Origin: Naegleria gruberi
Lineage: Eukaryota
Assembly (NCBI GenBank): GCA_000004985.1
Contig: GG738915.1
Strand: one strand, 5' to 3'
Length of the DNA: 64,000 nucleotides
Below, piece by piece: positions 21,989 through 58,686 of the stretch. The position numbers and the translations under genes are program-made. Positions within the stretch are counted from its first letter, which is position 1; the number at the start of each line of letters is the position of its first letter. The notes beneath the pieces are model-generated. The model saw only the letters and a list, made by a program, of their open reading frames with translations. It was not told where the DNA came from and did no database searches.

Positions 21989-22362
21989 TTTTTTTGATGA
22001 AGAAATTTGAAAATTCGTAAAGTATCTTCTTTGCTGATGATTCTTGTTCGCTCTTGTTGAATAATCATCAAATAGCAAGTGATAGGATGTGAATTGATGA
22101 ACACGAATTCAAGGTTGGTTTTGGATATGTTGAAGGTTAGAGGAAAATTGCATTTTGTATAGAAGGAGTACAATGTTAATACTCCGAGGGCAGGTAGATT
22201 TTTTGTGTCGAATCGTTTTGGGTATTGTAAGTTCTGTCAGGTAACTTTGCAAATATTTTGTCATACATTTATAATCTTAATGATCACAGTTGAGCTGTTT
22301 TACAATCTTGTTGTAAATTGTAAAGTTTTGGATTTATCAATTCAAATCAGACTGAAAAAAAT

Positions 22363-23528
22363 GGGACAATCACAACCATCGTATCCTGCCTCTACTCCAC
22401 CATGCAATTGTGATGATAAACACAACGTGAGAGAGAGTGTCATTAAAAAGATTGGAAATGTCAGAATGGTTCCGATTGATATTTTCCAAACATTGTTGGA
22501 ACAAGAGGAGAAGAATGATGAGAATTTAATTGATTTATTTAATGAGGAAAATTGTTCGATTTATGAGAAGGAATTACCTCATGAATTATTTATTCATATT
22601 TTAGGATATCTTACAGGGAGTGAAATTGTAAAACTGGGACGAACTTGTAAAAATTTTCAGTTTTATTGGATTAGAAATAGGACCTTGTGGAAAGGGATAT
22701 TGCAAAAGGAAGAACGTGATGATTTTGTTCCTTTCATGTATTTTAGACCAATTTTTGATTCATCAATGATTCAATCTATAATTTATTATCATACATATTT
22801 TATTCCACTTATTAGGAACTCATTCAAACGTAGTGATGAAAAGCAGATAAAAGCTTTTACCAAGACTGTACTGTTAGGACCTGAAGGAAGTGGAAAATCT
22901 GAAATTGTAGCAAGAATTGTCGGTAAAGACTTTGATCCTACTTATACTCCTACAATTGGTATGTTTTTTAATAATATTTTCAGACATTTATAAAGATTTA
23001 TTAGGTGTTGAGTTTGCAATGGTACCATATCAATTAAGCACTGGAATTAATGTTAAAATGCAGTACTGGGATGCTTCAGGCAAACCTACTTTCAACTCAC
23101 TTTCGAGAGCCTACACGAGAGGTGTACATGTAATCGGTTTCTGTTTTGATTTAAACAATGAAGAGTCATTTTCAGAAATGAAGAACAGAGTTGAGATTTA
23201 TAGAAATGAGAATTTTTCAAATTTAAAGTGGAATGCAAACCTGAAGGAGGAAAACGCTCACCTTTTAATTCTCGGAATGAAAAGAGATTTGGAGAGAAAG
23301 GTATCGATACAGCAAGTAAAAGAATACATTTCCGAACTAATTCAAGTAAAAAAGGAAGGAATATTACTGAAAGATTTGAGAATTCAATATTTTGAATTGA
23401 GTAACAAGACAGACACGATAGAAATGATAGAATTTCCGTTTATGTATGGTGTCCTCCAAGTAGAAGATAAGCTGGCAGTCGAAAGTCCACCACAACCTGT
23501 ACATGGTAATCTTCCTGCCAAGAAATAA
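22363..23528 (+). CDS. F-box domain fused to a Ras-superfamily small GTPase. Two exons: join(22363..22958, 22984..23528), with a 25-nt intron.
   Basis: The F-box reads 'LPHELFIHILGYLTGSEIVKLGRTCKNFQFYW'. In exon 1 the G1 P-loop is 'VLLGPEGSGKSEIV' and G2 is 'YTPTIG'. In exon 2 G3 is 'YWDASGKP' and an NKxD-like motif is 'LILGMKRDL'. The exons join across GTATGT(22959)...TTTTCAG(22983). I took the likely start as the ATG at 22363 (MGQSQP..). Confidence 0.55.
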
Positions 23529-25439: not shown

Positions 25440-26696
25440 ATGTCTAAACATTCTAGAGGAGGAATCCTTGATGGTCTTACTGATGAAGGATTCGTTGGAG
25501 AACAAGTTGAACATGTAGAGAAGAGGAGTGATGATCGGAGATCTTCATCTATGGTCAACTCGGAAGCAGAACCATCATCATCAAACAATACAGAAAATAC
25601 AAATCAGGAGGATGATGATTCCGGAAGAAAACAAATAGAGTGGATGTACAATAAAGATTATGATAAAGTGAATGAGGAAAGTTTGGAAGAATATTTAGTA
25701 GGAAAAAAGAGCATTGAAAAGTTGGTTCAGGGAGGAGATTTAGTGGATAATGATTATAAAATCATGCTGGAACAAAAGAAGGCTGGTGCATTGTTTTTAC
25801 ATAGCCACGAAAATAGACATCACTCTGGAGAAGCAATAATTGATGATCCGATGATTAAAATCAAACATGAATCACTTATGAGAATGAAAATGTATTTACA
25901 AAATCCAGAATTATTACAAAAAGAACTTGAAAAGAGAAAGAAGGAAAAGAAGGAAAAGAAAAAGAAGGAAAAAAAGGAAAAAAAGGAAAAGAAGAAGGAA
26001 AAGAAAGATAAGAAAGAGAAGAAGGAAAAAAAAGAAAAGAAAAAGGATAAAAAGAGAAAAGATTATTCAAGTGATAGTAGCTATACAAGTTATTCCAGCG
26101 ATGAACCAAAGGAAAAGAAGAAAAAGATAGAACCAAAAACTAAAGCTAGCTCTGAACCAAAAGAAACCCCTAAAACAAATCTATCAAATTCTGAAAAGGA
26201 ACCATCTAGCTCAACACACAAAGATGATAAATATAATAGAAACGATGATAAATATTATAGAGAAAGAGCGTATGACAGAAGAGATGATAGAAGAGACGAC
26301 AGAAGGTTCAATGACGATTATTATAGAGATGATAGAAATTATGATAGAGATTACAATAGAAGGGATTCATATCGTAACGAAAGATCTCGAGACAGATATT
26401 ATGATGACAGGAGGGATAGAAGTTATAATGAAAGAAAGTACAACGATAGAGATTATGAAAAAAGTAGAAAGAATGAAAATGTTTATGCCAAGGATGACTC
26501 ACAAAAGCAACTAGATCAAATGCTCAAAAATGGACAGCAAAGAGAACAGCAAAAACAAGAAAGCAAACTCAAATCACTTCAAGAAAAGGAAGAAATTCTC
26601 AATACTGCACCACAAGCCATCCACAATGAAAAGGCAACCTTTTTACAACAAACCAGAAAAGACACATACATGAATAAATCGTTCAACAAGCGGTAA
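25440..26696 (+). CDS. CWC25: CWC25-like pre-mRNA splicing factor, with highly charged K/E and R/D/Y-rich repeats.
   Basis: 'KQIEWMYNKDYDKVNEESLEEYLVGKKSIEKL' matches CWC25 'KLDWMYQGPGG..DEYLLGRPIDK'. The C-terminal 'TYMNKSFNKR' matches 'ALEKNFMKR'. The central (GAA/AAG)n-encoded KEKK repeats and RDDRRDD/YDR repeats are typical of the family. The N-terminal CIR segment was not found. Confidence 0.5.
   Translation: MSKHSRGGILDGLTDEGFVGEQVEHVEKRSDDRRSSSMVNSEAEPSSSNNTENTNQEDDDSGRKQIEWMYNKDYDKVNEESLEEYLVGKKSIEKLVQGGDLVDNDYKIMLEQKKAGALFLHSHENRHHSGEAIIDDPMIKIKHESLMRMKMYLQNPELLQKELEKRKKEKKEKKKKEKKEKKEKKKEKKDKKEKKEKKEKKKDKKRKDYSSDSSYTSYSSDEPKEKKKKIEPKTKASSEPKETPKTNLSNSEKEPSSSTHKDDKYNRNDDKYYRERAYDRRDDRRDDRRFNDDYYRDDRNYDRDYNRRDSYRNERSRDRYYDDRRDRSYNERKYNDRDYEKSRKNENVYAKDDSQKQLDQMLKNGQQREQQKQESKLKSLQEKEEILNTAPQAIHNEKATFLQQTRKDTYMNKSFNKR
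25925..26060 (+). repeat. Purine-rich (GAA/AAG)n microsatellite inside a coding region.
   Basis: 'aaggaaaagaaggaaaagaaaaagaaggaaaaaaaggaaaaaaagg...'. It encodes the EKKEKK repeats of the CWC25-like protein and produces spurious antisense and alternative-frame ORFs. Confidence 0.9.
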
Positions 26697-28733
26697 TTAT
26701 TCCTGTAAAATCAAATCTGATGCAATTTCTGCAATCATTACAATTGGAGCTTGAGTATTTCCTCTGACAATAGATGGAAATACTGAACCATCTACAACTC
26801 TCAAATTTTCCACACCAAACACTCTCAACTTTTCATCGACTACTCCTAGTTCAGAATTTTCACTCATTCTACAAGTTCCAACAGGGTGATAAATCATATC
26901 TACATGTTTCACTACGTATTCAATAATGTGAGCCCTTTGTTCAGTTTCTGTTGGCGAGCTCTTGATAGTATCCATCAAGGCTTGCACTCTTGGATGAGGT
27001 TTGATAAATATATTTTGCTTCATGAGATGGTCGCCAACTTGAAGCAACACTCTAATAGCCTCAGCCATTGTTTCCTTATCGTGTTTGTGTCCTACAAAGT
27101 TACTGTCAATTATAGGAGCCACAAATGGATTATTTGATTTGAGCTTTAAACCACCTCTAGATTTTGGTTGGAGAAGCAGTGGAATAAATGTAAAACCATG
27201 TTGGTGTAAGTGTAATGTTTCACTGTTTTCCATGACTGTTGGCGTATTGTGAACTTGAATATCGTGGGAGTCACAGTGATGCTTGTTGTAACATTGTTGA
27301 TTTTTAACATCCCATAGTGAAGGAGGATACGAGTTCACTAACTCGTTTTTACAAACCTTTGTTTTGAGTAGACCATTCAAACCAATTCCATTAGTTCCTA
27401 AAACTCCAGATCCTTCAAATAATACTTTGTAAATTTCATTGGGCTTGAATAACACACTCAAAACACTATCATAATCCCAACTGATATAATAAGGAACATG
27501 AATAGCAAGATGATCGTGTAAATGTTTTCCAACATTCTTATTATCAACTATTGTTGTAATATTGTGCTTGGATAATTCTTTTGAATCTCCAATACCAGAA
27601 AGCATCAATAATTGAGGTGAGTTAATAGCACCACCTGAAAGAATAACTTCTTTTCTCACTCTTTTTTCAACGTAGGCCTTTTTTCTCCTATCAAAGTATC
27701 TGACACCAACAGCCTTATTTCCTTCGAATAAAATATTGGTGGCCAAGGCTTCAGTTCTTACAAATAGATTTGGTCTTTTGAGAACTGTATCATTCAGGAA
27801 GGCATCAGCAGTACTGAAACGTCTACCATGCAAACTGTGAATCTGTGTAGTTCCTACAGCACCATATTCTACAAAATCTGATTGACTGTTATCTTTTGAA
27901 TGAGTAATTTTTGGATTATTGAGATCTCTCACGATTGGAATTGAAAGCACTTGACTCATGGCCTTAACTACTGGCTCAATAATTGAGAAAGTTTCTCCTT
28001 GTTCCTTCACAATCCATTCTCCATTTCTTCCATGATACTCATCTGAGAATATTTCTGCTGGACCTTGTTGTGCTTCTGATTTCTTAAAGTACTTGAGAAC
28101 ATGTTCAAAATTCCAAATCTTACTCTTTCCTCCAAATTCACATTCATTCCATGTATCATAATCCTGTGGACTTCCTCTCATATAAATCATTGCATTCATT
28201 GATGAACTACCTCCCAATATCTTTCCTCTTGGCCAAAACATCTTTTTCAATAAATGTTTAGGATTAATCTCTGATTCCTCTCCAATAGTATAATATTGCC
28301 AATCATGAACACTCTTCAACATGAACAAGTATAATGGAGTAAACTTTGCTAGGGGTGTATTATCAGACTTTCCAGCCTCCAACAATAATACTGAATGATT
28401 AACATTTTGACTCAGCCTTTTTTCAAAGAGTTTCAAAAGTTATCATTGATCATCATCAACATATTCATTAATATATTAATATGTATTAATTGATAATAAT
28501 TAAAAAGAAACTATGCAAATAAAAACAAACCTATTGGCCAAGACCGATCCTGCACTTCCACTTCCCACAATTATAAAATCAAACTCTTTGGGATCTTGAT
28601 GATTTTGAAATCTTTCATGTTGTTCCGAGAGACGATCAGGAAACCAAACGTGCGAATAGAGAAAAGTAAAGATTAGAAATAGAGAGAAAAGAAGGAAGAG
28701 TGTTGTCCTGAATAGTGTACCAAGTATGGACAT
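26697..28733 (-). CDS. GMC-family FAD oxidoreductase (choline dehydrogenase/glucose oxidase-like) with an N-terminal signal-anchor. Two exons: join(28733..28531, 28416..26697), minus strand.
   Basis: Exon 1 encodes a TM/signal segment and then the FAD dinucleotide motif 'DFIIVGSGSAGSVLANR'. The GTTTGT donor and the 114-nt intron join in phase to 'LSQNVNHSVLLLEAG'. Exon 2 contains 'GGSSSMNAMIYMRGSPQDYDTW', the GMC signature. Confidence 0.75.
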
Positions 28734-31688: not shown

Positions 31689-32113
31689 TTTTTTCTAATA
31701 TTTTTAAAATGGTATAACCCAAGCTGCAAAGAAATGTATCTCAATAACTGTATTGACCTACGCCTATCTTTTCAATAAAACAATAGATAAATACTTTAAA
31801 ACAAGGAATCTTGCCATCTGGCTTGATTCAACATTGGGGTTGTGTCCTATCGTTTTATGTCATAATTATAATTTGGGCATAACTATTAATATGTCATTAT
31901 GTTTTGGCAGAAACCCACTTTCGAGATTATAATATGCCATGATATGTTTACCTTTTTGTTGGAGCTGTATTATTGAACTTTGCTCTTTGCAGATCATGAG
32001 GGTTATTGGTGCGATCATAAAAATCGTATGTAGGTGTGCCAGACAGTCCCTGGTTCTCTTAAAGAGGGGATTGCTGTGGGTTAATAAAATTGTTTCTGTG
32101 GTCACAATAACAT

Positions 32114-34177
32114 TTAATTATTATTTGGATGTAGACTGGAATCCAAAAACATACAAGCTACTTCAAATTTAACATCAGTGTATGCACTTGTTTGTTCGCT
32201 TTGAACTGTACAATGCAACGTTGCCATGCCAGAAAGGTTGTTAAAGAAATCCTCAGCGCCTATCTCAAATTGTCTTGTACTACTCCTGTACACCCTATCT
32301 GTCACCATGTTATCTCTATGTATTAAGAGCTTAATAGGAACATTCTCATGAGTGTCATGGTCCTCAGCAGCTACTTCCAAAGTAAAGGAGCCACCAGTCT
32401 GTGGATATATCACTAACGGTTCTGTTGCCCAATTATTGTAATTGTGAGTCACATCCATTGTTCCTGTTGCCACAATGACAAATCTATTCTGGTAGCTCTC
32501 ATACTGACATAGTTTTTGTATCGGGAATAATGCATCACCATCTTGTAGATGGAGGTTGCTGGTATTGCAAGAGACCCTTTCATGTATAGCAACATCACCC
32601 AGTGAAGTAGTGTTAGCAACTAATGTATTGCTACTTTTTTGCAGAATGTACACCTTAGCACCAGGTAAACAATTTGTTACCAGTACTTCATTAGCCCCTG
32701 GTCTAACATATTTTTGCACCTCCGGTAACACACTTATGAATAGGCCATCGTGAGGTAGGTCTAGTATTGTTGCTTCTGTTTCACGATCGGCATTACAACC
32801 TGTCTGTTTTACCTTCACTTTTCTCTCGATACCTCTCTGTTTCATGAGTACATGAGAAAGGTGTAGTGTTACATTATCACTATCTACCAATACAGGTAAA
32901 TCACAAAGCCCTACAGTATCGTCATCTGAATAGTAAGCTTGCAGAGAGCTAGAGGGATATGCTCCTCTAACGGAAACAAGTTGAGAGCATTCATATAATG
33001 GCTCATAGATTACTAGGGGGCCGACAACACCAGAATTATTGAGATCATGAATTTCGACAGGATCAGCGTATTCACTTTCCTCACCACAAGCTATCTGCTT
33101 GGCAGTCAATCTATCACCTGGTTCGAAAGTTATTCCTTGGAATTCAGGAAGAATTAAAACATCATCACCAGTTTTGCTTGCTATTATCGGAAGACCAATT
33201 TGTACGTATGGATCTCCTCCATTTGGGTTTTTCTTCCACTGTGCAAACTGTACAAAGGCATCTTGTTCAAGATTTCTCAAGAACACCTTACCAATGTCCA
33301 AACACACGCCTGATGGTGCATTAATAATTGGTTTGAGAGGTTTCTCTTGTGGAAGTACCTCTAACTCGAGGGGATCAGAAATCTGCTCACACTCCTCACG
33401 AAACTGCTGCCAAATCTTCAACATAGTTCCCTTCTTCGAATGTGGAATACCACTTGCATGGAATTTTGGACCTGAAGTAATTAAAATTGTATACCACCAG
33501 TTCTTGTTCGTACCACTATAGTTTTCTATACACAATTGTGCTGTAACCCTTGCATTGTTGACATCTAAAGAATCTGTGCATGCATGGACGTCTCCTCCTA
33601 TCTCTAATTTTGGTAACCGACCTCCCCCTGGAATCTTTTCTATCTCAATAGGTGAACTAAACACGCTGGGACTCGTTAATACCCCATTAACAGTCGTGAC
33701 TTGCTGGTAAGCTTCTATTGAGAATGCTGCACTGGGATGATTGGAAACTTCTACATAATCCAATGACCTAACAGCAGGGTTACGTCTGCCAATTTCAGAC
33801 AAGTTTTGACGGATTATTACCTGCGCCCCAGGCTCCATATTATTCAGAATCAACCACTGCATGCAAGTGCTTAGAGGAGAATTAAAGCAAAGAGGTTGAA
33901 GTGTTGTCACTGAACGAACAGTTGCTTCTGCCTCTGGGCTTAAATTTCCATTAACCATTTGAAGCACAATGATAGTTTCTCCAGGAATAAGCACCGTGCC
34001 TTGAGTAAAGGGTACCCATACTATACCATGATTGTCAATGTTATCAACACTACCTATTATAGTTCCATTTCTCATAATGATAACTGAGGCATTTGGTGAG
34101 AGACTTGTAACACAAACATTTGGTGAAATCTCAGTGATTTGGCCGTTAATTAGTGGTGCCTGTGGTTTAACTCCCAT
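32114..34177 (-). CDS. Hypothetical 687-aa protein encoded by a compositionally atypical (about 45% GC) intronless gene.
   Basis: It is a long clean ORF with an ATG start. Its base composition and codon usage differ from the roughly 30-35% GC neighbours. It has no signal peptide and I recognise no domain; the sequence has the look of a beta-rich protein. Confidence 0.4.
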   Translation of the reverse strand: MGVKPQAPLINGQITEISPNVCVTSLSPNASVIIMRNGTIIGSVDNIDNHGIVWVPFTQGTVLIPGETIIVLQMVNGNLSPEAEATVRSVTTLQPLCFNSPLSTCMQWLILNNMEPGAQVIIRQNLSEIGRRNPAVRSLDYVEVSNHPSAAFSIEAYQQVTTVNGVLTSPSVFSSPIEIEKIPGGGRLPKLEIGGDVHACTDSLDVNNARVTAQLCIENYSGTNKNWWYTILITSGPKFHASGIPHSKKGTMLKIWQQFREECEQISDPLELEVLPQEKPLKPIINAPSGVCLDIGKVFLRNLEQDAFVQFAQWKKNPNGGDPYVQIGLPIIASKTGDDVLILPEFQGITFEPGDRLTAKQIACGEESEYADPVEIHDLNNSGVVGPLVIYEPLYECSQLVSVRGAYPSSSLQAYYSDDDTVGLCDLPVLVDSDNVTLHLSHVLMKQRGIERKVKVKQTGCNADRETEATILDLPHDGLFISVLPEVQKYVRPGANEVLVTNCLPGAKVYILQKSSNTLVANTTSLGDVAIHERVSCNTSNLHLQDGDALFPIQKLCQYESYQNRFVIVATGTMDVTHNYNNWATEPLVIYPQTGGSFTLEVAAEDHDTHENVPIKLLIHRDNMVTDRVYRSSTRQFEIGAEDFFNNLSGMATLHCTVQSEQTSAYTDVKFEVACMFLDSSLHPNNN

Positions 34178-36304: not shown

Positions 36305-36480
36305 ACATCGTATTAAAGTAGCTTTTGTAAGTTTTCTTGATTCATGTTCAACAAATAATTTAACCATTCAACAATACAATTCCTCTTAACATCTCACGTT
36401 TCAGATCTTTAAATAGATATTTGAAACTGCTCACGAACTTTAACAAAAAAAAATATTTAACTTGATAACTTGATCAGAGA

Positions 36481-38592
36481 ATGGTTAAGACTTCAATTGG
36501 AAGAGAAAAACAAAAGGCATCCATTGTTAATATTGCCACAAGAAGATTACTCAAGGATTTGAAGGAAATTAATGAAAATCCACTGCCTGATATTGTGGCA
36601 GCTCCCGTAGATGCAGAGAAAAATCTATTTGAATGGAGAGCCAATTTAAAGGGATTTGGGTCTTATGAAGGAGGAATATTTCACATTAGGCTAACCTTTC
36701 CAACTGACTACCCAATCAAACCACCAACTGTTGAATTGTGTACACCAATTGATCATCCAAATATCATTGGCAAATCAATATGTTTAGACATGTTGGGAGA
36801 TGCATGGTCAACAGCTTACTCTGTGCAATCAATTTTACTCCAATTACAATCCATATTATTGGATGACGAGAGAGTGGATGAGATGGCAACTATTAACCCA
36901 AAGCAATACAAGCAAAAAAAGAAGGAAATAGTTGACGCTTGTAAGTGGGCAGTTGAGCAATCTTTGAGATTTTCAGACCCTTCTGTTGGCCATTTTCCTC
37001 CTGCAAAGCCGTTCCCAAAGTTTCAAACAGCACAGGCAAAAGTTATTGATTTGAATGAGTTTACCAAATCTGAGCTTGTTTGCTATTTCTCCAGAAGTTC
37101 CTATGAGGAAGATGTGCTTGGTTATGGTATCACCTTTACAAAGAATATTAGAACTGGAAGAATTAATTTGATCCAATCAACTCTTGAGTTGTTATCTTTG
37201 AGATCATTTATGAATTATTCCATTAGAAAAACATCGAATGGTGATGAATTTACTCATTGGATGCCTATTTTCGTTGAGCCAAACCATGGTAAAAAGGCAA
37301 TGCACTTGGCTAAACGTTCAATTTCAATGATTTGCACAGGTAATGCAAAGAATTTCAAACCTGAACAAGTTATGGAAGTATTTCCAAAGATTCTGACAAC
37401 TATTTCTGTTGACATTATGACTACACAGAAGAAGCATGGTTCTATCAGAGCATTGAAGATCTATTGTCATTACTATAGAACATTTTTGGAGTTTGTGAAG
37501 GAATATCCAGAATTATTGGTAACAATTAATAATAATGTTAAGAGATTTATTGATTCTGAGGATAACAGACACAAAGACGTGACTCCAAATTTAGGAGAAC
37601 TATTGGCAATCCTTCCATTGAGTGATTACTCTTGGAAGGACATTTCAAGTGCATACATTGAGGAGTCGTTTACTAGAAATGTATTTTGGCTTCTTAATAG
37701 ATATAAAGAATTAGAAATGGAAAATTGCAAAGAATTCGATGACATGGATCGTCTCAAATATTCATTTGAAACAAGTAAGGCCAGTCAGAAATTGTTAATG
37801 TTGAACATATTCATTTTAGAAAACATTGCAAGACCTGAAAGAACTGAAATTGAAGAAATCAGAAATGAGTTTGATAATAGACTTGGTAGATTGAATCCAA
37901 CAGATGAAGATTCCTGTTTAGAAACATTGAAAAAAATTAACTGTGTCAAAAACTACTTGGAATTCTTTGAGTTTGTTGGAATGAGTCAGGTCAAGGAAGA
38001 TCAAATTGTTGAACTATTGAAGCAATCTATCAAGAAGAGTAAGACTAAGGGATACCATGGATCTACTATCTATGTTATGAGTCCTGAAGAGTTCCAAAGA
38101 CACACTAAGAAATTGGACGAATATCTAATTAATGATGGACAAGGAAATTACATACTCGAAACCAATGAAGAGAAGTGGAAAACAGGCTGTATACAAAGAT
38201 GGGGTACGGTTAAATATCCTGACTATTTGGAAAACCTCTCAAATCCTTGGCGAAAACTCTACTTGCAGTACAATTTACAAGACTTGATTTCTTCATTGAA
38301 TGAATCTTGTGATTTCAAGTATCTCCATCATGTTTTGGAACTTTGTGTTGAGATTCCAAGATTGGAAATTGTCATGTTTAATCCAGAAAAGTTGAAGAGC
38401 AAATACTACTTCCTCACGCTTGTATTGACTAAACTTGTGAATTTGGACACCTTAACAATTTCAAGAGGTGAAACTGGTTTGGGAACATCAGGTTTCCGTG
38501 CTCTTATTAAAGGGCTTTCTAATAATCAAGCCAAATTAGAGAATTTGATTTTAGACAGTTGTGATATTACAGCTAGTTGTGTTGAGAATTAA
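36481..38592 (+). CDS. Protein with a ubiquitin-conjugating enzyme (UBC/E2) domain at the N-terminus and a long extension that ends in RNI-type LRRs. It probably continues into the next ORF.
   Basis: The UBC fold reads 'FEWRANLKGFGSYEGGIFHIRLTFPTDYPIKPPTVELCTPIDHPNIIGKSICLDMLGDAWSTAYSVQSILLQLQSIL', with HPN and the catalytic Cys. The last 50 aa ('LSNNQAKLENLILDSCDITASCVEN') already read as an LRR. Confidence 0.6.
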   Translation: MVKTSIGREKQKASIVNIATRRLLKDLKEINENPLPDIVAAPVDAEKNLFEWRANLKGFGSYEGGIFHIRLTFPTDYPIKPPTVELCTPIDHPNIIGKSICLDMLGDAWSTAYSVQSILLQLQSILLDDERVDEMATINPKQYKQKKKEIVDACKWAVEQSLRFSDPSVGHFPPAKPFPKFQTAQAKVIDLNEFTKSELVCYFSRSSYEEDVLGYGITFTKNIRTGRINLIQSTLELLSLRSFMNYSIRKTSNGDEFTHWMPIFVEPNHGKKAMHLAKRSISMICTGNAKNFKPEQVMEVFPKILTTISVDIMTTQKKHGSIRALKIYCHYYRTFLEFVKEYPELLVTINNNVKRFIDSEDNRHKDVTPNLGELLAILPLSDYSWKDISSAYIEESFTRNVFWLLNRYKELEMENCKEFDDMDRLKYSFETSKASQKLLMLNIFILENIARPERTEIEEIRNEFDNRLGRLNPTDEDSCLETLKKINCVKNYLEFFEFVGMSQVKEDQIVELLKQSIKKSKTKGYHGSTIYVMSPEEFQRHTKKLDEYLINDGQGNYILETNEEKWKTGCIQRWGTVKYPDYLENLSNPWRKLYLQYNLQDLISSLNESCDFKYLHHVLELCVEIPRLEIVMFNPEKLKSKYYFLTLVLTKLVNLDTLTISRGETGLGTSGFRALIKGLSNNQAKLENLILDSCDITASCVEN

Positions 38593-38618
38593 CAAAAGGA
38601 TCTCTGAGCTCTTGTAAC

Positions 38619-40418
38619 TTGAAACGTATTGCTCTATGTGGAAATCCACTGGGAGATCAAGGAGCCAATTACCTGTCCAAATTCCTAATGAGACATGAAA
38701 ATGTTCCCCATCTACGTGAGTTGGATCTTTCTCGCTGTGGAATTAGACAAAATGGAGCTGAATGTATTGCTGAAGCTTTGCTAGTAAAGAGGGAAATTAC
38801 ATCCTTCAAATTTATTGGAAATCCATCAGAGCAAGGACTGTATACCATATTGAAACACTTGGGATACTCCTCATGTATTGCGGAGATTGATTTCAGTATG
38901 ACTAGTTCTATTGTAGCCAATGGTAATTCTGAAAGTATGGTCAAACTGTTGGATCTTTCCACAACTCTCAAGAAGATTAACTTGTGGAAAGCTAATGGAT
39001 TCCACATTCTCACCCAAGAAGTATTCAACAGAATTGGTAAATCAAAGAGTTTGAAAGATATTGATATGGCCGAAACAAAATTCAAAGATATTTCACTATT
39101 TGCTTTCGCTTTGAAAGATAACTACGTATTGGAAACTTTGAATCTATCAAATAATGATATCAAACTCTCTGAGGTGTATCAATTATATTGTAGATTACTT
39201 TTGTTACACTTTGAGAATGCTAACAAAACGAGAGAATTCTTGGATGGACCTAATGCTGCTGTCCCACCAAAGCTTGTCCATTTACAAAAGCTAACTCTAT
39301 CTAAGAATAATTTAACTAATCTATTACAGTCAAATATCAAAGAGGCAATTAGTATTGGTCAAATAATGAAAATGTGTACAAATTTGAATTATTTGGATTT
39401 ATCGGGATGTAAAATTGACAAAACTCATATGGAAGGAATTGCAGCAGCTTTGGATCCTAAATTCAACCTTCCTCTCAAAACTCTCAAATTGAATAATAAT
39501 GAGATTGGCAAAACAGGTTTGAGACCACTTGCCTCTATAATGAAACTCAATACTACCATTGAAGATTTGGACCTCTCTGGTAATGATTTGGGAGTTACAG
39601 GAAGTGTTTCATTAGCTGAAATCATTACAAATAACTCTTCCATCAAGAAATTGAACATATTCTCATGTTTTGTTCAAATTGAAGGAATTGACATTATTTC
39701 CAAAGCATTACAACAAAACACATCAATCACAGATTTGGATATTGGTTTGAATTCAGCCAAAGAAAGAGGAGCTCTTTCAATTATTGAAATGCTCAAACAA
39801 AATACCACTCTTAAGAGGCTTGGACTCAAATTGAATCATTTAAGTGACAAGACATGTACACAAATTGCCAATATCATTGCTATTGAAAATCCTAAATCCG
39901 CAATTCAATATTTAGCTCTTTCTGGTAATTCTCTTTCAATTTCAACAAGTTCCAATATTTCCATAGTTCTAAACTCTGTAAAGGATAGAGTAATTGAGTT
40001 TGATCTTACCAAATTGGTTGAAGTGAAAGATACAGAAAAACAAAATAGAACTATTTATCTTTCACCACTTCCAAACTCAATTACAATTCAAGATATCAAG
40101 AAATTCTTCTATCAACACAAATGTGGAGCTATATTGAATGTCTACATTCACAAACATAAGACTCCCAATAAGAAGACCAGACTCAACAAGTATGCCTTTG
40201 TAGAGTTTGCTCATCCAGACTCACTTCAATTGGCCATACGTTTGAGATATTCTAATAGACCAGAAAAGAAATCTCCAAATGTTGTAAAGCTTTTGAAGAG
40301 AATTCGTGGAAATGATGGTAAGAAAACTAAAGCAAAATGGTATGAATCCAAGCTCATCATCACCAAATCAGGCAATCAACTTCACAATGAAAGAGCCAAA
40401 AAGAAAATCAAACATTAA
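38619..40418 (+). CDS. RNI-like (ribonuclease-inhibitor-type) LRR protein with a C-terminal RRM. It is probably the 3' part of the UBC gene upstream.
   Basis: It carries more than 12 repeats of about 28 residues ('LDLSGCKIDKTHMEGIAAAL', 'LKLNNNEIGKTGLRPLASIM', 'LDLSGNDLGVTGSVSLAEII'). The C-terminal RRM reads 'RTIYLSPLPNSITIQDIKKFF...KYAFVEFAHPDSLQLAIRL'. The track start is a TTG, and the reading frame is open 33 nt upstream of it. Confidence 0.6.
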   Translation: MKRIALCGNPLGDQGANYLSKFLMRHENVPHLRELDLSRCGIRQNGAECIAEALLVKREITSFKFIGNPSEQGLYTILKHLGYSSCIAEIDFSMTSSIVANGNSESMVKLLDLSTTLKKINLWKANGFHILTQEVFNRIGKSKSLKDIDMAETKFKDISLFAFALKDNYVLETLNLSNNDIKLSEVYQLYCRLLLLHFENANKTREFLDGPNAAVPPKLVHLQKLTLSKNNLTNLLQSNIKEAISIGQIMKMCTNLNYLDLSGCKIDKTHMEGIAAALDPKFNLPLKTLKLNNNEIGKTGLRPLASIMKLNTTIEDLDLSGNDLGVTGSVSLAEIITNNSSIKKLNIFSCFVQIEGIDIISKALQQNTSITDLDIGLNSAKERGALSIIEMLKQNTTLKRLGLKLNHLSDKTCTQIANIIAIENPKSAIQYLALSGNSLSISTSSNISIVLNSVKDRVIEFDLTKLVEVKDTEKQNRTIYLSPLPNSITIQDIKKFFYQHKCGAILNVYIHKHKTPNKKTRLNKYAFVEFAHPDSLQLAIRLRYSNRPEKKSPNVVKLLKRIRGNDGKKTKAKWYESKLIITKSGNQLHNERAKKKIKH

Positions 40419-40732
40419 TCTGTTTTAATCACCAAATTCCCAAATTTCACTAGTAGAATTCTTGACATTGAATCATTTTTTGAATGTATTTTTACTAAGG
40501 TTTTGTGAAATTTATTTTCAATACTTCAGAAAAGGTCGAAATGATAAGGTAAAGATAGTCCTCTAACTAGCTTACTTTAAAATTAGTAAAACTCCTACAC
40601 CCGTCAAAAGTCCTACCCGCTGCATTTAAGGATCCAACAAGTGCGGGCTATTTTAATCATCATTGATGCAACTTGATGTAATATGAGTGGCATCAAGTAT
40701 TTTCAAACAAAACACAACAAAACACATAAAAA

Positions 40733-41737
40733 ATGGCAGGAGGAGGTTCAACCTACAAATCGACAGAACCAATCGGAACTGGTAGAATATTCTTTTATTG
40801 CATTGTTTGGCTGATATTGGTGATTGGTCTATCGTTTATGAATAAAGCAGTATTTAAATGGACAGAATTCAAGTATCCAGTGCTGCTGTCGACTGTACAT
40901 ATGATTATAAATTGGTTGATGGGAAGTTTTGTGTGGGGAAGGATGAATGGAAAGATAAAGGAGGAAGAGGAAAAGAAGGGTCATGATTTGAGACATTTAA
41001 TAATGTACTTCTCATTGTTATTTGTATTGAATATTGCTTTCGGAAATATGAGTGTCAAGGCAGTGAATTTATTGTTGAGTCAAGTTTTCAGATCTTCAAT
41101 GCCAATATTTATAATGATTTGTTCGGTTGTGTTGGGTGTTGGAAGTAGACCTAGTACACGCGTTATTCTCACTGTTTTACCAATTATTATTGGAGTTTAT
41201 TTGACTTGTAAGAAAGATGACAGTAAGGTTAGCTCAAATACTGAAGAAGATTTATTGAATATCAAATCATTGGCTATTTTATTAATTGGAAACATTATGT
41301 GTGCTCTCAAAACTACTCTTACCAATAAGTATCTCAATCAGTACAAGTTCCATCCAATTTATTTATTGAGTAAGCTTTCAATGTGGAGCTCTTTTGGAAT
41401 GTTTGCTTTTGCTGCAGTGACTGGAGAAGTTTCAGACCTTTTCAACAATAATTTACATGTTTTATATAATGTCAAGACAGTTGGATTTGTCATTTCTACA
41501 GGATTTGTTGCATTCCTATTGAACTATTTCAATTTCCTTGCCAATTCCTCTACAAGTCCACTCACAATGGGAATTTGTGGATTGTTACATCAAGTGCTGA
41601 CAGTCTACCTTTCTACCATTGTTTTTGATACATCTTTGAATCAAACTAATGTGATTGGTATTTGTCTTGCAATGATTGGCAGTGCTCTCTATACTTTTGT
41701 AAAGTATTTAGAAGCTCAAAAAGTAAAATCAAACTAA
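40733..41737 (+). CDS. Nucleotide-sugar/triose-phosphate transporter family protein (SLC35/TPT, drug-metabolite superfamily).
   Basis: It has 10 predicted TM helices. The N-terminus 'NKAVFKWTEFKYPVLLSTVHMII' is typical of SLC35E/TPT. It is a 334-aa intronless ORF. Confidence 0.65.
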   Translation: MAGGGSTYKSTEPIGTGRIFFYCIVWLILVIGLSFMNKAVFKWTEFKYPVLLSTVHMIINWLMGSFVWGRMNGKIKEEEEKKGHDLRHLIMYFSLLFVLNIAFGNMSVKAVNLLLSQVFRSSMPIFIMICSVVLGVGSRPSTRVILTVLPIIIGVYLTCKKDDSKVSSNTEEDLLNIKSLAILLIGNIMCALKTTLTNKYLNQYKFHPIYLLSKLSMWSSFGMFAFAAVTGEVSDLFNNNLHVLYNVKTVGFVISTGFVAFLLNYFNFLANSSTSPLTMGICGLLHQVLTVYLSTIVFDTSLNQTNVIGICLAMIGSALYTFVKYLEAQKVKSN

Positions 41738-41787
41738 TTTCTAACAACAACTTTCGTATTGAACTTTCCAATAAATTATATTAAAAA

Positions 41788-42858
41788 ATGGCAGAACAAG
41801 TTAGGGTTGAGTTATTCGATTTTTCAACAACACCATCACAGCAAGGCTGGGAATTAAATAAATTTCTGCAAGAAAGGTTTCGTAAGAAGAAACCGACCGG
41901 AGCTTCATTTGCATATTCCACCTTTCGTAAAATTAATACTATTAGCACAAGAAGGTGGAAACGACGATTCATTGCCAACTCGTTTGCAATTTGCAAATCT
42001 TTAAATTGTATTCTCATGCTCTCATCAAACAACACGGTCTATGTTTATTCTCTCAAATCTAAAAGGTATCTGAATCGGTTTCCACTCTTTCCCTTTGGAT
42101 ATAATTTGGGAGGACCTCCACTACATTTTAAAGTGGTAGAACGAGAGCAAGATCCAAATAATCAGGCTCACATTATTGTACTACTTTCGGATAGTTTTAA
42201 TGGTAAATTGGAAATACATAAAATTAATTTGGACACATTGATGAAAGAACGAAGTCGTATGAAGAATAGAAATACCAGGATTTTAGATAGCTATGCTTCT
42301 AATTTGGTGTGGAAAATTGAGAAGAATATACCCAAGACAAATGGAACTGCCACAATGCTATTTGTTCCAAATAGAGAGTTTGAGAATGTTGAAAAGGGTG
42401 ACGCTGCTATATTGATCTATTTCACTAATCAAAAGAATATCCTAGATTGTTTTAGTTACAAGTATGGAAAACAACTGAGTTCTATAACTGTCCCTGATAC
42501 TATAAGTAGCTCAAGTACTGTATTACATTTAGCTGTCAGTGGATCTAATTTAATATTTTACAGGTATAACTCTGCTGATTTTGTGGATCAAAGAATGAAT
42601 GTAATACAGAGTTTGAAAACAAACATTATTTGCATTGGAAGCGCTGTCATCTATGAGCCAAATTCAAATGTGTTTATAACCCAGCAATCATCTAAAATTA
42701 TGGCATTTCAATATCGCGATGATAATCTCAGTGTTGTTGGATCACGCAAGTTGAGAGTAAAAGGTAAAACAATCGATTGGTCAATGATGCATTTCAATGA
42801 TTCCAATGGAGAGCTATTGGTTCTGCATCGTAATGAGAAATTATTAACATTCAAGTAA
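41788..42858 (+). CDS. Hypothetical protein (356 aa).
   Basis: It is a complete ORF with an A-rich ATG context. No domain recognised. Confidence 0.3.
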   Translation: MAEQVRVELFDFSTTPSQQGWELNKFLQERFRKKKPTGASFAYSTFRKINTISTRRWKRRFIANSFAICKSLNCILMLSSNNTVYVYSLKSKRYLNRFPLFPFGYNLGGPPLHFKVVEREQDPNNQAHIIVLLSDSFNGKLEIHKINLDTLMKERSRMKNRNTRILDSYASNLVWKIEKNIPKTNGTATMLFVPNREFENVEKGDAAILIYFTNQKNILDCFSYKYGKQLSSITVPDTISSSSTVLHLAVSGSNLIFYRYNSADFVDQRMNVIQSLKTNIICIGSAVIYEPNSNVFITQQSSKIMAFQYRDDNLSVVGSRKLRVKGKTIDWSMMHFNDSNGELLVLHRNEKLLTFK

Positions 42859-45549: not shown

Positions 45550-47531
45550 ATGAAAATAACGCTCGGTTTCAAACCAGGCGTTTTTAATGCTCTTGTTCAA
45601 GTGCCTGATCTTTTCAGTGTTATTCTTCAATATTTGGATTGTTCCTCATTGTTTGCCCTAACGATGGTGAATAAGAAATTATTTGGATTATTTGATGAGA
45701 GTAAAATTGATGAATTGGTTCAATCATCATCGGAAGAGGTGTTGAACGTTGTGACAATTGATCCTAATTTATGGTTGAATTTGGTTTCATACTATGAAGA
45801 AAGGTTGAGAAAATTAAAATTGGAGTTTAATTCTAACGATTTGTAAGTTGGCTTATCAAGTAGTTGAATATTTACTTGTTTTCTAAAAGCTATCGATACT
45901 ATCCAATGAACGTAAATTTTCAAGAATATATTGAGCTTGTGAAGCCAAAAACAACAGAGAAGGAAAATGTAAAAACTAGCAGTATTAGAGAAATACTTGA
46001 AATTATTGTTGACTGTAGGAAAAAATTGAAAAGGTTGTACTCTGATTGTTGGAAACAAAAGAAACCTGAAGAATATGGTGTTGAGTTTTCCAAGAGTGGA
46101 AGATCTAGTTGTAAAACTTGTTTTAAGCCAATTCCATACGGAGTTCTCAGAGGCTATCAGGACAACCACGAAAACTATTACAAAGCTCATGAATGTCACC
46201 ATTTGACTTGCTTTTATAAAATACTATTGACTGAAAATGTACGTGAAGAAGATGTGAAATATGAAGAGGAGAAACAAAAAGCAGCCATTTCCAAGCTTTA
46301 TGAGTTTATAGCAAAGGAGAAAAAATTAATACAGAAATCAAAGTGGCAATGCACCACTTGTGATGGATGTAATGTACTATTGAATGGAGATGCATACATG
46401 TCAGCAGAAAAAGGAAAGATGGATCTATGTGCAAAGTGCTATGTCACTAACGATGAGCTGGTTTCTGGAAAAAGTGAGAAGGGGCCTTTTGTCCCTACCC
46501 CTCCTTTAAAACCTTTCCAAAAATGTAGATATTGTAAGGAACAGATCAAAAGGGTCTTATTTAATTGTCATCAATGTAATATTGGCTTTTGTGGAGAGTG
46601 TTTAAAATCCTTAAGGTGGTTTGATCACAAAAAACACTTTATTAATGTAATTGGAAATGCTCTTGATGATGAAATGAAATGTTTAACTGCTGACTTCAAA
46701 CCTGAAGATGCTAAACCATTACCAGTGAGTGCTTATGAAAGGTTTTCTGTTCTGGATTTGATGGAAGAATTTTTAGGAGAATCTAAAAGGGATGCAGGTC
46801 AACCAACTCCTTCTGAAAGATTCACAGCTACCCCCAACAAGAAAACAGATCTATCAGGGATAAAGTCACAAAAAACTGCAACAATTACAAAACCAAGTAA
46901 TAACGAATCTAACCACTCTTCTAAAACCAACACTCAACCAAAGAAGCCAGAAAGTACAAAACCAACAACCGAAAAACAAGTTCAAAGCAACTTGAAACTC
47001 TCCAAATCGCAACAAGCTAGTTCCAAGACAATCCCTCAGAAGTCTTCTGTTCAACAAACTCTTTCATCAACAACTTCTAAAAAAAGAGTTTTAATTGAAT
47101 TGAGCTCTGATGAAGAATCAGAAGATGAAATCGATCTAAAGAAATTAGAGGCAACTACAGGATCTAATGAGATTCCAAAATTAAAACCTGAAGTAGTTAT
47201 TGCCTCAAAAGTTGAACCAGCCAAGAAGAAATCAAAACAAGAGAAATCCAAGAAGAAAGAAAGCAAGGAAAAAACAAAAAAGAAAAAACCAAAGAAAGAA
47301 GAAAACAGTGATGAAGAGAATGACGAAATCTACCTTGTGGAAAAGCTGTTGGATAGAAAAATAGTGCATGGAAAGCCATACTATCTAGTAAAGTGGGAAG
47401 GTTATCCCAACTCAGATAACTCGTGGGAACCAAACAACAATATTTCACCAGATCTAATTGAAGATTTTGAGGAGGAATTTGAGAAAAACAAGCCACGAGT
47501 AGCAAGCAAGACGAAGAAGAGAAAAATATAG
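45550..47531 (+). CDS. Protein with an F-box-like domain, ZZ-type zinc fingers and a C-terminal chromodomain. Two exons: join(45550..45842, 45890..47531).
   Basis: Exon 1 ('LVQVPDLFSVILQYLDCSSLFALTMVNKKLFGL', F-box-like) ends at GTAAGT(45843). The 47-nt intron ends in CTAAAAG. Exon 2 carries ZZ fingers ('WQCTTCDGCNVLLNGDAYMS..CAKCY', 'CRYCKEQIKRVLFNCHQCNIGFCGEC') and a canonical chromodomain 'EIYLVEKLLDRKIVHGKPYYLVKWEGYPNSDNSWEP'. Confidence 0.65.
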
Positions 47532-57415: not shown

Positions 57416-57434
57416 TGTTGTTTTTTTCAATGGG

Positions 57435-57588
57435 NNNNNNNNNNNNNNNNNNNNNNNNNNNNNNNNNNNNNNNNNNNNNNNNNNNNNNNNNNNNNNNNNN
57501 NNNNNNNNNNNNNNNNNNNNNNNNNNNNNNNNNNNNNNNNNNNNNNNNNNNNNNNNNNNNNNNNNNNNNNNNNNNNNNNNNNNNNNNN
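57435..57588. other. Assembly gap (154 N).
   Basis: A run of N characters. It interrupts the YKT6-like gene. Confidence 1.
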
Positions 57589-57936
57589 TAATGTATATGT
57601 TGACTTTGGATATTTCTTTTCATACTCAACAAGTACTTTATAGAGTAATGAAAAAGCAACTCTAGCTGGATAATCACTATCTGTAACAATAACAGCACTT
57701 AATTGACTATCCACTCTTGTTTGTACATAACAAGTGTATTCATCCTTGACAATTTGTTGTCTTGTTCCTGGAGGATTTTTATCCGATAATAATCTAGTAA
57801 TAAATACAACATATTCACGAACAGTACCACGTTGAAAGAATCCGAATGAAGATAATTCATCATAGCCGGCCAAAATAACTGATTTGCTATTTGCTGTTGT
57901 TGGCTTGTAGAGAACGTGAATGGCCAATAATTTCAT
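57589..57936 (-). CDS. YKT6: SNARE YKT6 N-terminal longin domain. The gene is truncated by the assembly gap and its SNARE/CAAX C-terminus is not recovered.
   Basis: 'MKLLAIHVLYKP..ANSKSVILAGYDELSSFGFFQRGTVREYVVFITRLL...YTCYVQTRVDSQLSAVIVTDSDYPARVAFSLLYKVLVEY' is collinear with human YKT6 'MKLYSLSVLYKG..LLKAAYDVSSFSFFQRSSVQEFMTFTSQLI...YLCHVYVRNDSLAGVVIADNEYPSRVAFTLLEKVLDEF'. Confidence 0.65.
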
Positions 57937-58686
57937 TTTTTATTATTAGAGTTTTAAATTAATTGAATACCGACAGCATCATCATGCTACAACAATACAT
58001 ATTCTAAGTTTATGTTTGCCTCAAATGGAAAGAACATGTCTTTCCAATTAATATCTTTCTTCATCATCATCATGATTATCAATATGAATTAATCTCAAAT
58101 AATAATATATATTTCAATTTCACCCTTAACAAAGAATTCATACTCAAAGCTCCACATAATAATATTAATATTCTCAATACCTCACATTAATCTCTAATGT
58201 GAATGCAACTTTCATGTTTGCATCTCATCTCAATCCAAAAAAATCACTGACGATAAACTATTCAGGAATTTCTAAATCAAAAAAAAGGCCTCACTTCCCG
58301 TACGAGGCTTTATTAGCTGACTTGTTAAAGTACGAACCAAAGTAACCTCTCCACACTAACTTTATAGTTTAGTTGAACAAGTACGCTGTGATGATCATCT
58401 ATTTATGTATTGGCAATTTGAAAAACCATTCTTGTCAATCTCAATATGTATTATTCAATCAAAAATCCAAAAATGAGTATTGGCATTTGAATTTTACAAA
58501 TATGTGATTCCGTAAATTGATAAATACACTTTATTATACAAATAACAGTTTACAAAGAGAATATTCTTCAGTCGTGTGATTCACAACTTGAAAAAAATAT
58601 CGGCACACATCTTACCATCATCATTGTGTCTTGGTCGCGACCACACAGAACAAACAGAGGATTGTGATGATCACAATAATATACAG

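What the first reader, a model, noticed from the sequence alone, without database searches (positions are those of the whole stretch)
36481..40418. UBC(E2)-LRR(RNI-type)-RRM arrangement split into two ORFs by an apparent 1-nt frameshift
ORF 36481-38592 begins with a complete UBC fold and ends while already inside RNI-type LRRs ('LSNNQAKLENLILDSCDITASCVEN*'). The next ORF starts only 26 nt later, in the -1 frame. That frame is open back to 38586, it continues the same LRR periodicity ('..LTKGSLSSCNLKRIALCGNPLGDQGANYL..'), and it ends with an RRM. No canonical GT...AG intron can join the two ORFs. The options are a sequencing or assembly indel near 38583-38592, a recent pseudogenising frameshift, or ribosomal frameshifting. 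An E2 domain fused to ribonuclease-inhibitor-like LRRs and an RNA-binding domain would be an unusual architecture.
Basis: seen in the sequence. Interest (0 to 1): 0.6.

Follow-up and report, generated by a model that had tools for sequence, protein, structure and literature searches.

The report
One-base gap splits Naegleria ubiquitin gene
One missing G in this Naegleria gruberi sequence splits a conserved 1,312-residue gene into two reading frames; the split is a sequencing error or a very recent lesion, because a 99%-identical environmental strain has the G and an unbroken frame, and the whole protein looks like a self-contained ubiquitin ligase (E2 enzyme, UBR4-like E3 module, leucine-rich repeats, RNA-binding domain).

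Summary
ORF 36481-38592 has a UBC/E2 domain with an HPN motif and Cys101. The next frame, open from 38586 to 40418, carries RNI-type LRRs and an RRM. The two are halves of one gene. Naegleria fowleri, Willaertia, Acrasis and others encode all of it in single 1,300-1,385-aa proteins (96% query coverage), with no gap at the junction.

The window is N. gruberi (NEG-M reference, Sanger). An independent metagenome contig, 98.96% identical to the window, reads GTTGAGGAATTA where the window reads GTTGAG-AATTA. Its ORF runs straight through the junction. Adding that G gives a 3,939-nt CDS and restores a 28-residue LRR unit.

Intron and programmed frameshifting are rejected. Error versus a real NEG-M lesion remains open; I favour error.

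As a consequence, the reference annotates only the 3' piece (NAEGRDRAFT_81863, 576 aa). The E2 half is unannotated.

The parts
36481..38586 (+). 5' part of the single CDS (codons 1-702, frame of ORF1). It is not annotated in the N. gruberi reference.
38584..38592 (+). The lesion: GAG-AATTAA. One G is missing between 38586 and 38587 (intact form GAG GAA TTA = E-E-L). The TAA at 38590-92 is the resulting premature stop.
38587..40418 (+). 3' part of the single CDS (codons 703-1312 plus stop after repair).
36544..36930 (+). UBC/E2 catalytic core (aa 22-150), with HPN at aa 92-94 and catalytic Cys101.
37051..38070 (+). Domain with no Pfam family (about aa 191-530) whose predicted fold matches the UBR4 hemiRING-UZI E3 module. 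It has a small beta subdomain followed by a helical bundle.
38398..39986 (+). RNI-type leucine-rich repeat region (about aa 640-1169). The 28-aa unit 686-713 spans the lesion.
40053..40241 (+). RRM (repaired aa 1192-1254), with RNP2-like IYLSPL and RNP1-like KYAFVEF, followed by a Lys-rich tail.
   Evidence: sequence
38688..40418 (+). Extent of the reference gene model NAEGRDRAFT_81863 (EFC37706.1 / XP_002670450.1 / UniProt D2VZS0, 576 aa). This is a truncated fragment that starts at the first ATG after the lesion.

Best explanation
36481-40418 is one intronless gene of Naegleria gruberi that encodes a 1,312-aa protein. In this sequence (the Sanger NEG-M reference scaffold) one G of GAGGAA is missing at 38586/38587. 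I think the most likely cause is a base-calling or assembly error.

The intact protein contains, in order:
- a catalytically competent E2 domain (HPN, Cys101);
- a domain with the fold of the UBR4 hemiRING-UZI E3 module;
- about 18 RNI-type LRRs;
- an RRM with a basic tail.

Inferred mechanism: E1 charges Cys101 with ubiquitin. The UBR4-like module, fused in cis, plays the E2-docking and activating role that it plays in trans for UBE2A in UBR4. The LRR solenoid and RRM bring in the substrate, probably an RNA-bound protein or RNP. The protein would thus act as a self-contained E2-E3 ligase.

Shown here: the single-gene status, the exact missing base, the domain content and the fold match. Inferred: enzymatic activity, activation in cis, RNP targeting, and that the lesion is an error rather than a real mutation.
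For: One gene:
- The fused query hits single proteins of 1,300-1,385 aa at 96% coverage.
- The alignment has no gap at the junction: SIQ-ELTKG in N. fowleri against CVE[N*]/[*]ELTKG in the window.
- N. fowleri reads CAG GAA CTT ACA AAG GGA where the window reads GAG -AA TTA ACA AAA GGA, in mid-exon.

Missing G:
- Contig L004 (ENA ERZ929261) matches window 38419-42753 at 98.96%.
- It reads GTTGAGGAATTAAC, and its ORF runs through the junction.
- The other 7 indels between L004 and the window are all intergenic.

Repair:
- The repaired CDS is 3,939 nt with no internal stop, and the LRR unit at the junction becomes exactly 28 aa.

Still under constraint:
- Window against the other strain: 11 synonymous and 2 non-synonymous differences; pN/pS is 0.069 for the 3' part.
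- Under neutrality, P is 1.4e-4 for the 3' part alone and 2.5e-6 overall.

Source:
- The neighbouring proteins are exact N. gruberi entries on a 260,018-nt scaffold.
- The NEG-M genome was Sanger-sequenced (PMC9928731).
- The window contains a scaffold gap.

Fold:
- The model of aa 151-640 has pLDDT 88.6.
- Foldseek finds only 8b5w and 8btl_A as significant hits, with TM 0.59-0.62.
- These entries are the UBR4 E3 module, alone and with UBE2A (PMC10873205).
Against: - No reads or independent NEG-M data could be reached, so error and genuine NEG-M mutation are not separated.
- A Sanger error at a GG dinucleotide is plausible but not shown.
- The UBR4 similarity rests on a predicted structure only. 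A family profile finds nothing in the PDB and no Pfam family matches.
- UBR4's C-x2-C...H-x2-C zinc ligands are not recognisable in the N. gruberi sequence.
- No experimental evidence exists for activity or RNA binding.
Confidence: 0.55

Rival explanations
1. The missing G is real. It would be a very recent loss-of-function frameshift, possibly on only one allele, in the laboratory strain NEG-M, in a gene that is intact in wild relatives.
For: - One-base indels do distinguish this strain from the metagenome strain in intergenic DNA, including a non-homopolymer one at 36435.
- Every other frame break that I inspected in the window is explained by a canonical intron, so the assembly is not obviously indel-ridden.
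- Axenic laboratory strains are known to accumulate such lesions (general knowledge).
Against: - Both halves are free of any other stop. 610 codons stay open by chance with P about 7e-22.
- Substitutions are overwhelmingly synonymous, 11 against 2. Any real lesion must therefore be extremely young.
- It is the only indel inside coding sequence among the 12 indels seen in the 6 kb that can be compared.
Confidence: 0.38
2. Programmed -1 (or +2) ribosomal frameshifting joins the two ORFs during translation.
For: The two frames overlap by only 7 nt, and both are conserved coding sequence.
Against: - A 99%-identical strain and all orthologues encode the protein in a single frame.
- The allowed shift window 38586-38592 (GAG AAT TAA) contains no X XXY YYZ heptamer.
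- The 120 nt downstream fold no better than shuffled sequence, z = -1.05.
Confidence: 0.02
3. A tiny spliceosomal intron spans the junction.
For: - GT...AG pairs at 38576-38598 (23 nt) and 38558-38598 (41 nt) restore an open frame.
- Genuine introns in this window are as short as 41 nt.
Against: - Real introns here begin GTATGT, GTAAGT or GTTTGT and end YAG. The candidates begin GTTGTG and end AAG.
- They would remove SCDITASCVEELTKG or part of it. That segment aligns codon for codon with N. fowleri exon sequence and is present in every orthologue.
- Removing it would shorten an LRR unit from 28 to 13-20 aa.
- The other strain needs no splice.
Confidence: 0.01
4. True gene fission: N. gruberi expresses two separate proteins, E2 plus E3-like module (703 aa) and LRR-RRM (576 aa), as the reference annotation partly implies.
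For: The reference annotates the 3' piece as its own gene, NAEGRDRAFT_81863.
Against: - There is no intergenic spacer, promoter space or ATG at the break. The first ATG is 96 nt downstream, inside an LRR.
- The break cuts through the middle of a repeat unit.
- The sister strain is unsplit.
- The 5' piece has no model at all, so the annotation is a by-product of the frameshift rather than evidence for two genes.
Confidence: 0.04

Closest known systems
Naegleria fowleri FDP41_004051 (P0001, 1,349 aa, 'UBC core domain-containing protein'), with Willaertia magna ABK040_016060/004011/007384 and Acrasis kona AKO1_010097
   Same: These are full-length collinear orthologues or paralogues. Identity is 45-55% over 96-98% of the repaired protein, with the same order UBC, middle domain, LRR_6 repeats, RRM_1.
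   Different: They are unbroken single ORFs; N. fowleri has one small intron near codons 40-60. All are uncharacterised 'hypothetical proteins'.
Human UBR4 hemiRING-UZI E3 module, alone (PDB 8B5W) and bound to UBE2A (8BTL); Barnsby-Greer et al., NSMB 2024 (PMC10873205)
   Different: - There is no detectable sequence similarity.
- The C2HC zinc-ligand pattern is not evident.
- Here the module is fused directly behind an E2 domain, not placed at the C-terminus of a 574-kDa protein that recruits a free E2.
- No UBR box is present.
E2/E3 hybrid enzymes UBE2O and BIRC6 (from my own knowledge, not tested here)
   Same: These are large proteins in which a UBC core is embedded among substrate-binding regions, so one polypeptide both carries ubiquitin and selects the substrate.
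   Different: Their flanking regions (CR1-3 and coiled coil in UBE2O; BIR, WD40 and armadillo-like in BIRC6) are unrelated to the UZI-like, LRR and RRM modules found here.
Other proteins with the same 'UBC + middle domain' cassette, for example the Acanthamoeba castellanii 'ubiquitin-conjugating enzyme subfamily protein' (P0030) and members from Anaeramoeba, Soliformovum and Pelomyxa
   Same: They share the UBC core plus the ~335-aa middle domain at 27-35% identity. The family has 1,613 cluster representatives at E<=1e-3.
   Different: In place of LRR-RRM they carry other modules according to Pfam: F-box-like, VWA, TerD, SPRY, S1 or CCCH fingers.

Membership tests
Ubiquitin-conjugating enzyme (UBC/E2) superfamily | UBC core fold recognised by the family profile | tested here: met
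   PF00179 E 6.1e-27, 94.4 bits against a cut-off of 27, aa 22-150. 282 PDB E2 chains match at E<=1e-3; the best is 5v0r_A at 5e-26.
Ubiquitin-conjugating enzyme (UBC/E2) superfamily | HPN motif and catalytic cysteine | tested here: met
   HPN at aa 92-94 and Cys101 in ...IDHPNIIGKSICLDML.... These align with the HPN and Cys of 5v0r_A.
Ubiquitin-conjugating enzyme (UBC/E2) superfamily | Forms a ubiquitin thioester | not testable with these tools
   This needs biochemistry.
UBR4-type hemiRING-UZI E3 module | Three-dimensional fold: beta-rich finger packed on an 11-helix UZI bundle | tested here: met
UBR4-type hemiRING-UZI E3 module | Sequence homology to UBR4/UBR1-3 | tested here: not met
   A profile of 20 family members finds no PDB chain even at E<=10. 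No Pfam family matches.
UBR4-type hemiRING-UZI E3 module | C2HC zinc site (C-x2-C ... H-x2-C) | tested here: inconclusive
   Across the family only H171 and C201 (N. gruberi numbering) are invariant. Many members have C-x-H...C-x-H, but the Naegleria clade has V-x-H...C-x-F. No structural alignment of the ligands was available.
UBR4-type hemiRING-UZI E3 module | Binds and activates an E2~Ub | not testable with these tools
   This needs biochemistry or a structure.
RNI-type (ribonuclease-inhibitor-like) LRR proteins | LRR_6 profile matches and a 28-29-residue repeat period | tested here: met
   PF13516 E 1.4e-18. Repeat units measure 28, 31, 28, 30, 28, 28, 31 and 28 aa, and the unit across the lesion is exactly 28 aa after repair.
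RRM (RNA recognition motif) | RRM_1 profile above the gathering score, with RNP2 and RNP1 motifs | tested here: met
   PF00076 scores 32.3 bits against 20.7. IYLSPL and KYAFVEF are visible in the sequence; the motif consensus comes from my own knowledge. RNA binding itself was not tested.
Programmed -1 ribosomal frameshift site | Slippery X XXY YYZ heptamer in the overlap, a downstream stimulatory structure, and conservation of the two-frame layout in relatives | tested here: not met
   There is no heptamer in 38586-38592. The downstream fold has z -1.05. Relatives and a 99%-identical strain use a single frame.
Spliceosomal intron of this genome | GTA[AT]GT or GTTTGT 5' site, YAG 3' site, 41-85 nt, and sequence absent from orthologous proteins | tested here: not met
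   The candidates start GTTGTG and end AAG, and they cover residues conserved in all orthologues.

The most novel reading that the evidence does not exclude
The 'UBC + UZI-like' cassette could be an undescribed, widespread class of natural single-chain E2-E3 ligases in protists (Discoba, Metamonada, Amoebozoa). In these, a UBR-type E3 module would be fused in cis to its E2 and combined with interchangeable recognition arms. The heterolobosean LRR-RRM version would ubiquitinate RNA-bound targets. This would also mean that the UBR4 E3 module is an ancient, portable unit that predates its capture by the giant UBR4 protein.
Probability: 0.3. Interest if true: 0.7.

Novelty: new variant of a known kind. 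Interest (0 to 1): 0.4.

Why it matters
Practical: the N. gruberi reference (UniProt D2VZS0 / NAEGRDRAFT_81863) carries a truncated 576-aa model and omits the E2 and E3-like half. Comparative studies will therefore miscount this gene. Inserting one base repairs it.

Biological: the frameshift itself is ordinary. The repaired protein, however, shows that the recently defined UBR4 hemiRING-UZI fold, described in 2024 as a novel fold, also occurs fused directly to an E2 core in a large family of uncharacterised protist proteins. That offers a compact natural system of about 640 aa for studying how this atypical E3 module activates an E2. The link to an RRM also suggests ubiquitination directed at RNA-protein complexes.

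Tried and rejected
1. Intron. I enumerated the GT..AG pairs across the junction. The 20-nt and 38-nt pairs create a TGA. The 23-nt and 41-nt pairs keep the frame but delete conserved residues and lack the splice consensus.

2. Programmed frameshifting. There is no slippery site and the downstream fold is not significant.

3. JGI metagenome scan for the junction DNA with a 1-2-nt gap: no match.

4. Exact look-ups of ORF1, of the 576-aa and 599-aa versions of ORF2, and of the next gene, to find an independent NEG-M contig. None is on record.

5. PRJEB11402, the source of the intact contig, does not appear in the paper library.

6. Literature searches for UBC-LRR-RRM proteins or for hemiRING/UZI in protists found nothing relevant.

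7. Profile search of the middle domain against PDB and Pfam found nothing.

8. The afdb50 fold library was unavailable.

9. The word-index protein search is not exhaustive. One search missed N. fowleri P0001, and neither nor one search returned the N. gruberi model. The state of the annotation was therefore settled by exact look-up instead.

10. A regex survey for zinc ligands was too crude to decide whether a zinc site exists.
Full report
**1. The observation**

The ORF listing reproduces both ORFs at the stated coordinates.
- ORF1 (36481-38592, 703 aa) ends ...LENLILDSCDITASCVEN*.
- The neighbouring frame is closed by TGA at 38583-85. It is then open from 38586 to the stop at 40416-18, and begins ELTKGSLSSCNLKRIALCGNPLGDQGANYL.

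Pfam finds these domains:
- UQ_con at ORF1 aa 22-150 (E 6e-27);
- LRR_6 in ORF2 (E 1.4e-18);
- RRM_1 in ORF2 at aa 490-552 (32.3 bits against a cut-off of 20.7).

The E2 core has the HPN motif (aa 92-94) and the catalytic Cys101. With the local base composition, 610 codons stay open by chance with P about 7e-22. Both frames are therefore real coding sequence, and the cross-over is confined to 38586-38592.

**2. One gene, not two**

A query made by joining the two translations hits single proteins of 1,300-1,385 aa that cover 96-98% of it:
- Naegleria fowleri FDP41_004051 (55% identity);
- two Willaertia magna proteins;
- Acrasis kona AKO1_010097;
- transcriptome-derived EukProt entries;
- many metagenome proteins.

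In the alignment there is no gap at the junction. Orthologues read CDITAQ-SIQ-ELTKGR, and the window reads CDITAS-CVE(N*) / (*)ELTKGS. The N. fowleri gene has a single small intron near codons 40-60 and is one exon from codon 60 to the end. At the DNA level N. fowleri reads CAG GAA CTT ACA AAG GGA, and the window reads GAG -AA TTA ACA AAA GGA. Exactly one base is missing.

**3. Source and the decisive comparison**

The downstream gene (40733-41734, triose-phosphate-transporter family) is 100% identical to a Naegleria gruberi predicted protein on a 260,018-nt scaffold. Exact look-ups also place the upstream gene (EFC37705.1) and the gene at 41788-42855 (EFC37708.1) in N. gruberi. The window contains a 154-nt run of N. 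The only N. gruberi genome, NEG-M ATCC 30224, was Sanger-sequenced (PMC9928731, Table 1).

Looking up the transporter protein returned an independent 4,340-nt contig, L004. It comes from an ENA metagenome assembly (ERZ929261, run ERR1078381).
- It aligns to window 38419-42753 at 98.96% identity, so it is a very close but distinct strain.
- At the junction it reads GTTGAGGAATTAACAAAA, where the window reads GTTGAG-AATTAACAAAA.
- Its ORF, cut only by the contig start, reads ...DSCDITASCVEELTKGSLSSCNLKRIAL... without interruption.
- The other seven indels between the two sequences all lie in intergenic spacers.

A second contig, L001, from the same sample covers the first 113 codons at 99.3% identity. 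It differs from the window only by intergenic indels and synonymous changes.

Inserting the G gives a 3,939-nt CDS with no internal stop, encoding 1,312 aa. The LRR unit that spans the lesion becomes exactly 28 residues, in register with its neighbours of 31, 28, 30, 28 and 28 aa.

**4. Rivals**

*Intron.* Genuine introns in this window are 41-85 nt. They start GTATGT, GTAAGT or GTTTGT and end YAG. Examples:
- 22959-23004 in an F-box/Ras-like gene (PTIG|VEF);
- 21485-21525, 20315-20359 and 19717-19766 in a Na/Ca-exchanger-like gene.

Across the junction, the 20-nt and 38-nt GT..AG pairs create a TGA. The 23-nt and 41-nt pairs keep the frame, but they begin GTTGTG, end AAG and delete residues that every orthologue keeps. 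The sister strain needs no splice. Rejected.

*Programmed frameshifting.* There is no X XXY YYZ heptamer in GAG AAT TAA. The 120 nt downstream fold no better than shuffles (z -1.05). Relatives are single-frame. Rejected.

*Gene fission.* There is no spacer or start codon at the break; the first ATG is at 38688, inside a repeat. The break falls in the middle of an LRR unit. Very unlikely.

*Error versus real lesion.* This remains open.
- Coding differences between the window and the other strain are 8 synonymous and 2 non-synonymous in the 3' part (pN/pS 0.069), and 3 and 0 in the 5' part. Under neutrality P is 1.4e-4 and 2.5e-6.
- The gene has therefore been under purifying selection for essentially the whole divergence. 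A real lesion would have to be extremely recent, or confined to one allele.
- I could not reach reads or any independent NEG-M assembly.
- I put error at about 0.55 and a genuine NEG-M lesion at about 0.38.

**5. Consequence for the annotation**

The 576-aa sequence that starts at the first ATG after the lesion (window 38688-40418) is exactly EFC37706.1 / XP_002670450.1 / NAEGRDRAFT_81863 / UniProt D2VZS0, 'predicted protein'.
- ORF1 is not in the 15-billion-protein collection.
- A model bridging the lesion with the 41-nt pseudo-intron is not there either.
- The accession numbers of the flanking models are consecutive (EFC37705, EFC37706).

The E2-containing half is therefore unannotated in the reference.

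**6. What the protein is**

Residues about 151-640 match no Pfam family. An exhaustive HMMER scan finds 1,613 cluster representatives at E<=1e-3 and 994 at E<=1e-10. The conserved core is about aa 195-530. Named members come from Willaertia, Acrasis, Anaeramoeba ignava, Soliformovum, Pelomyxa and Acanthamoeba. In other members the same UBC-plus-middle-domain cassette is combined with F-box-like, VWA, TerD, SPRY, S1 or CCCH modules in place of LRR-RRM.

An AlphaFold2 model of aa 151-640, built with 39 homologues, has mean pLDDT 88.6.
- Foldseek independently finds only 8b5w (E 9e-6, TM 0.62) and 8btl_A as significant hits.

Sequence-level similarity is undetectable. UBR4's C2HC ligand pattern is not recognisable: only H171 and C201 are invariant in the family, and the Naegleria clade lacks the C-x-H...C-x-H pattern seen in many other members. 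I therefore call this a UBR4-like fold, not a proven hemiRING.

**7. Mechanism (inferred)**

The E2 core is charged at Cys101. The UBR4-like module, covalently tethered about 40 residues downstream, would act as the E2-docking and activating element. The RNI-type LRR solenoid and the C-terminal RRM with its basic tail would select the target, plausibly an RNA-bound protein. This resembles the E2/E3 hybrids UBE2O and BIRC6 (my own knowledge), but with a different and unreported set of modules. Literature searches found no description of such a protein.

**8. Verdict**

The frame break is a one-base deletion in the reference sequence of an otherwise intact, conserved gene, not a biological recoding signal. 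As a frameshift it is ordinary, an annotation repair. The interest lies in the repaired protein's architecture: an E2 fused to a UBR4-type module in a large uncharacterised protist family.

Noticed in passing
window 57435-57588: A 154-nt run of N (scaffold gap) lies inside a minus-strand gene with a Longin domain (57430-57939). That gene model must also be incomplete.
   Followed up: partly
window 19426-22108 (-): A multi-exon gene combines a YccF domain with Na_Ca_ex domains. It has very short canonical introns at 21485-21525 (41 nt), 20315-20359 (45 nt, containing the in-frame stop at 20328-30) and 19717-19766 (50 nt, GTTTGT...TATAG).
   Followed up: partly
window 22163-23525 (+): An F-box-like domain and a Ras/Roc-type GTPase domain sit in one gene, joined across a 46-nt intron at 22959-23004 (PTIG|VEF). 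This pairing is uncommon.
   Followed up: partly
window 45864-47528 (+): This ORF carries a PARP-type zinc finger (below the Pfam cut-off) and a chromodomain. A likely 47-nt intron lies just upstream at 45843-45889.
   Followed up: no
window 25440-26696 (+) and 26697-28436 (-): Two convergent ORFs abut with no base between their stop codons; the first has a CWC25 splicing-factor domain. Other spacers are also very short: 36 nt between 25404 and 25440, and 51 nt between 41737 and 41788.
   Followed up: no
window 32001-34000: GC content rises to 0.41 here, against 0.27-0.37 elsewhere in the window. The rise coincides with the 687-aa minus-strand ORF 32114-34177, which I did not examine.
   Followed up: no
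L001, L002, L004 (ENA ERZ929261 / run ERR1078381): An environmental metagenome contains an amoeba about 99% identical to N. gruberi NEG-M. The differences are synonymous substitutions and intergenic indels. It could be used to proof-read other reference gene models.
   Followed up: partly
one search compared: The word-indexed protein search did not return N. fowleri P0001 when queried with ORF1 alone. Neither search returned the N. gruberi model that is in the collection. Absence from that tool's output is therefore weak evidence.
   Followed up: yes
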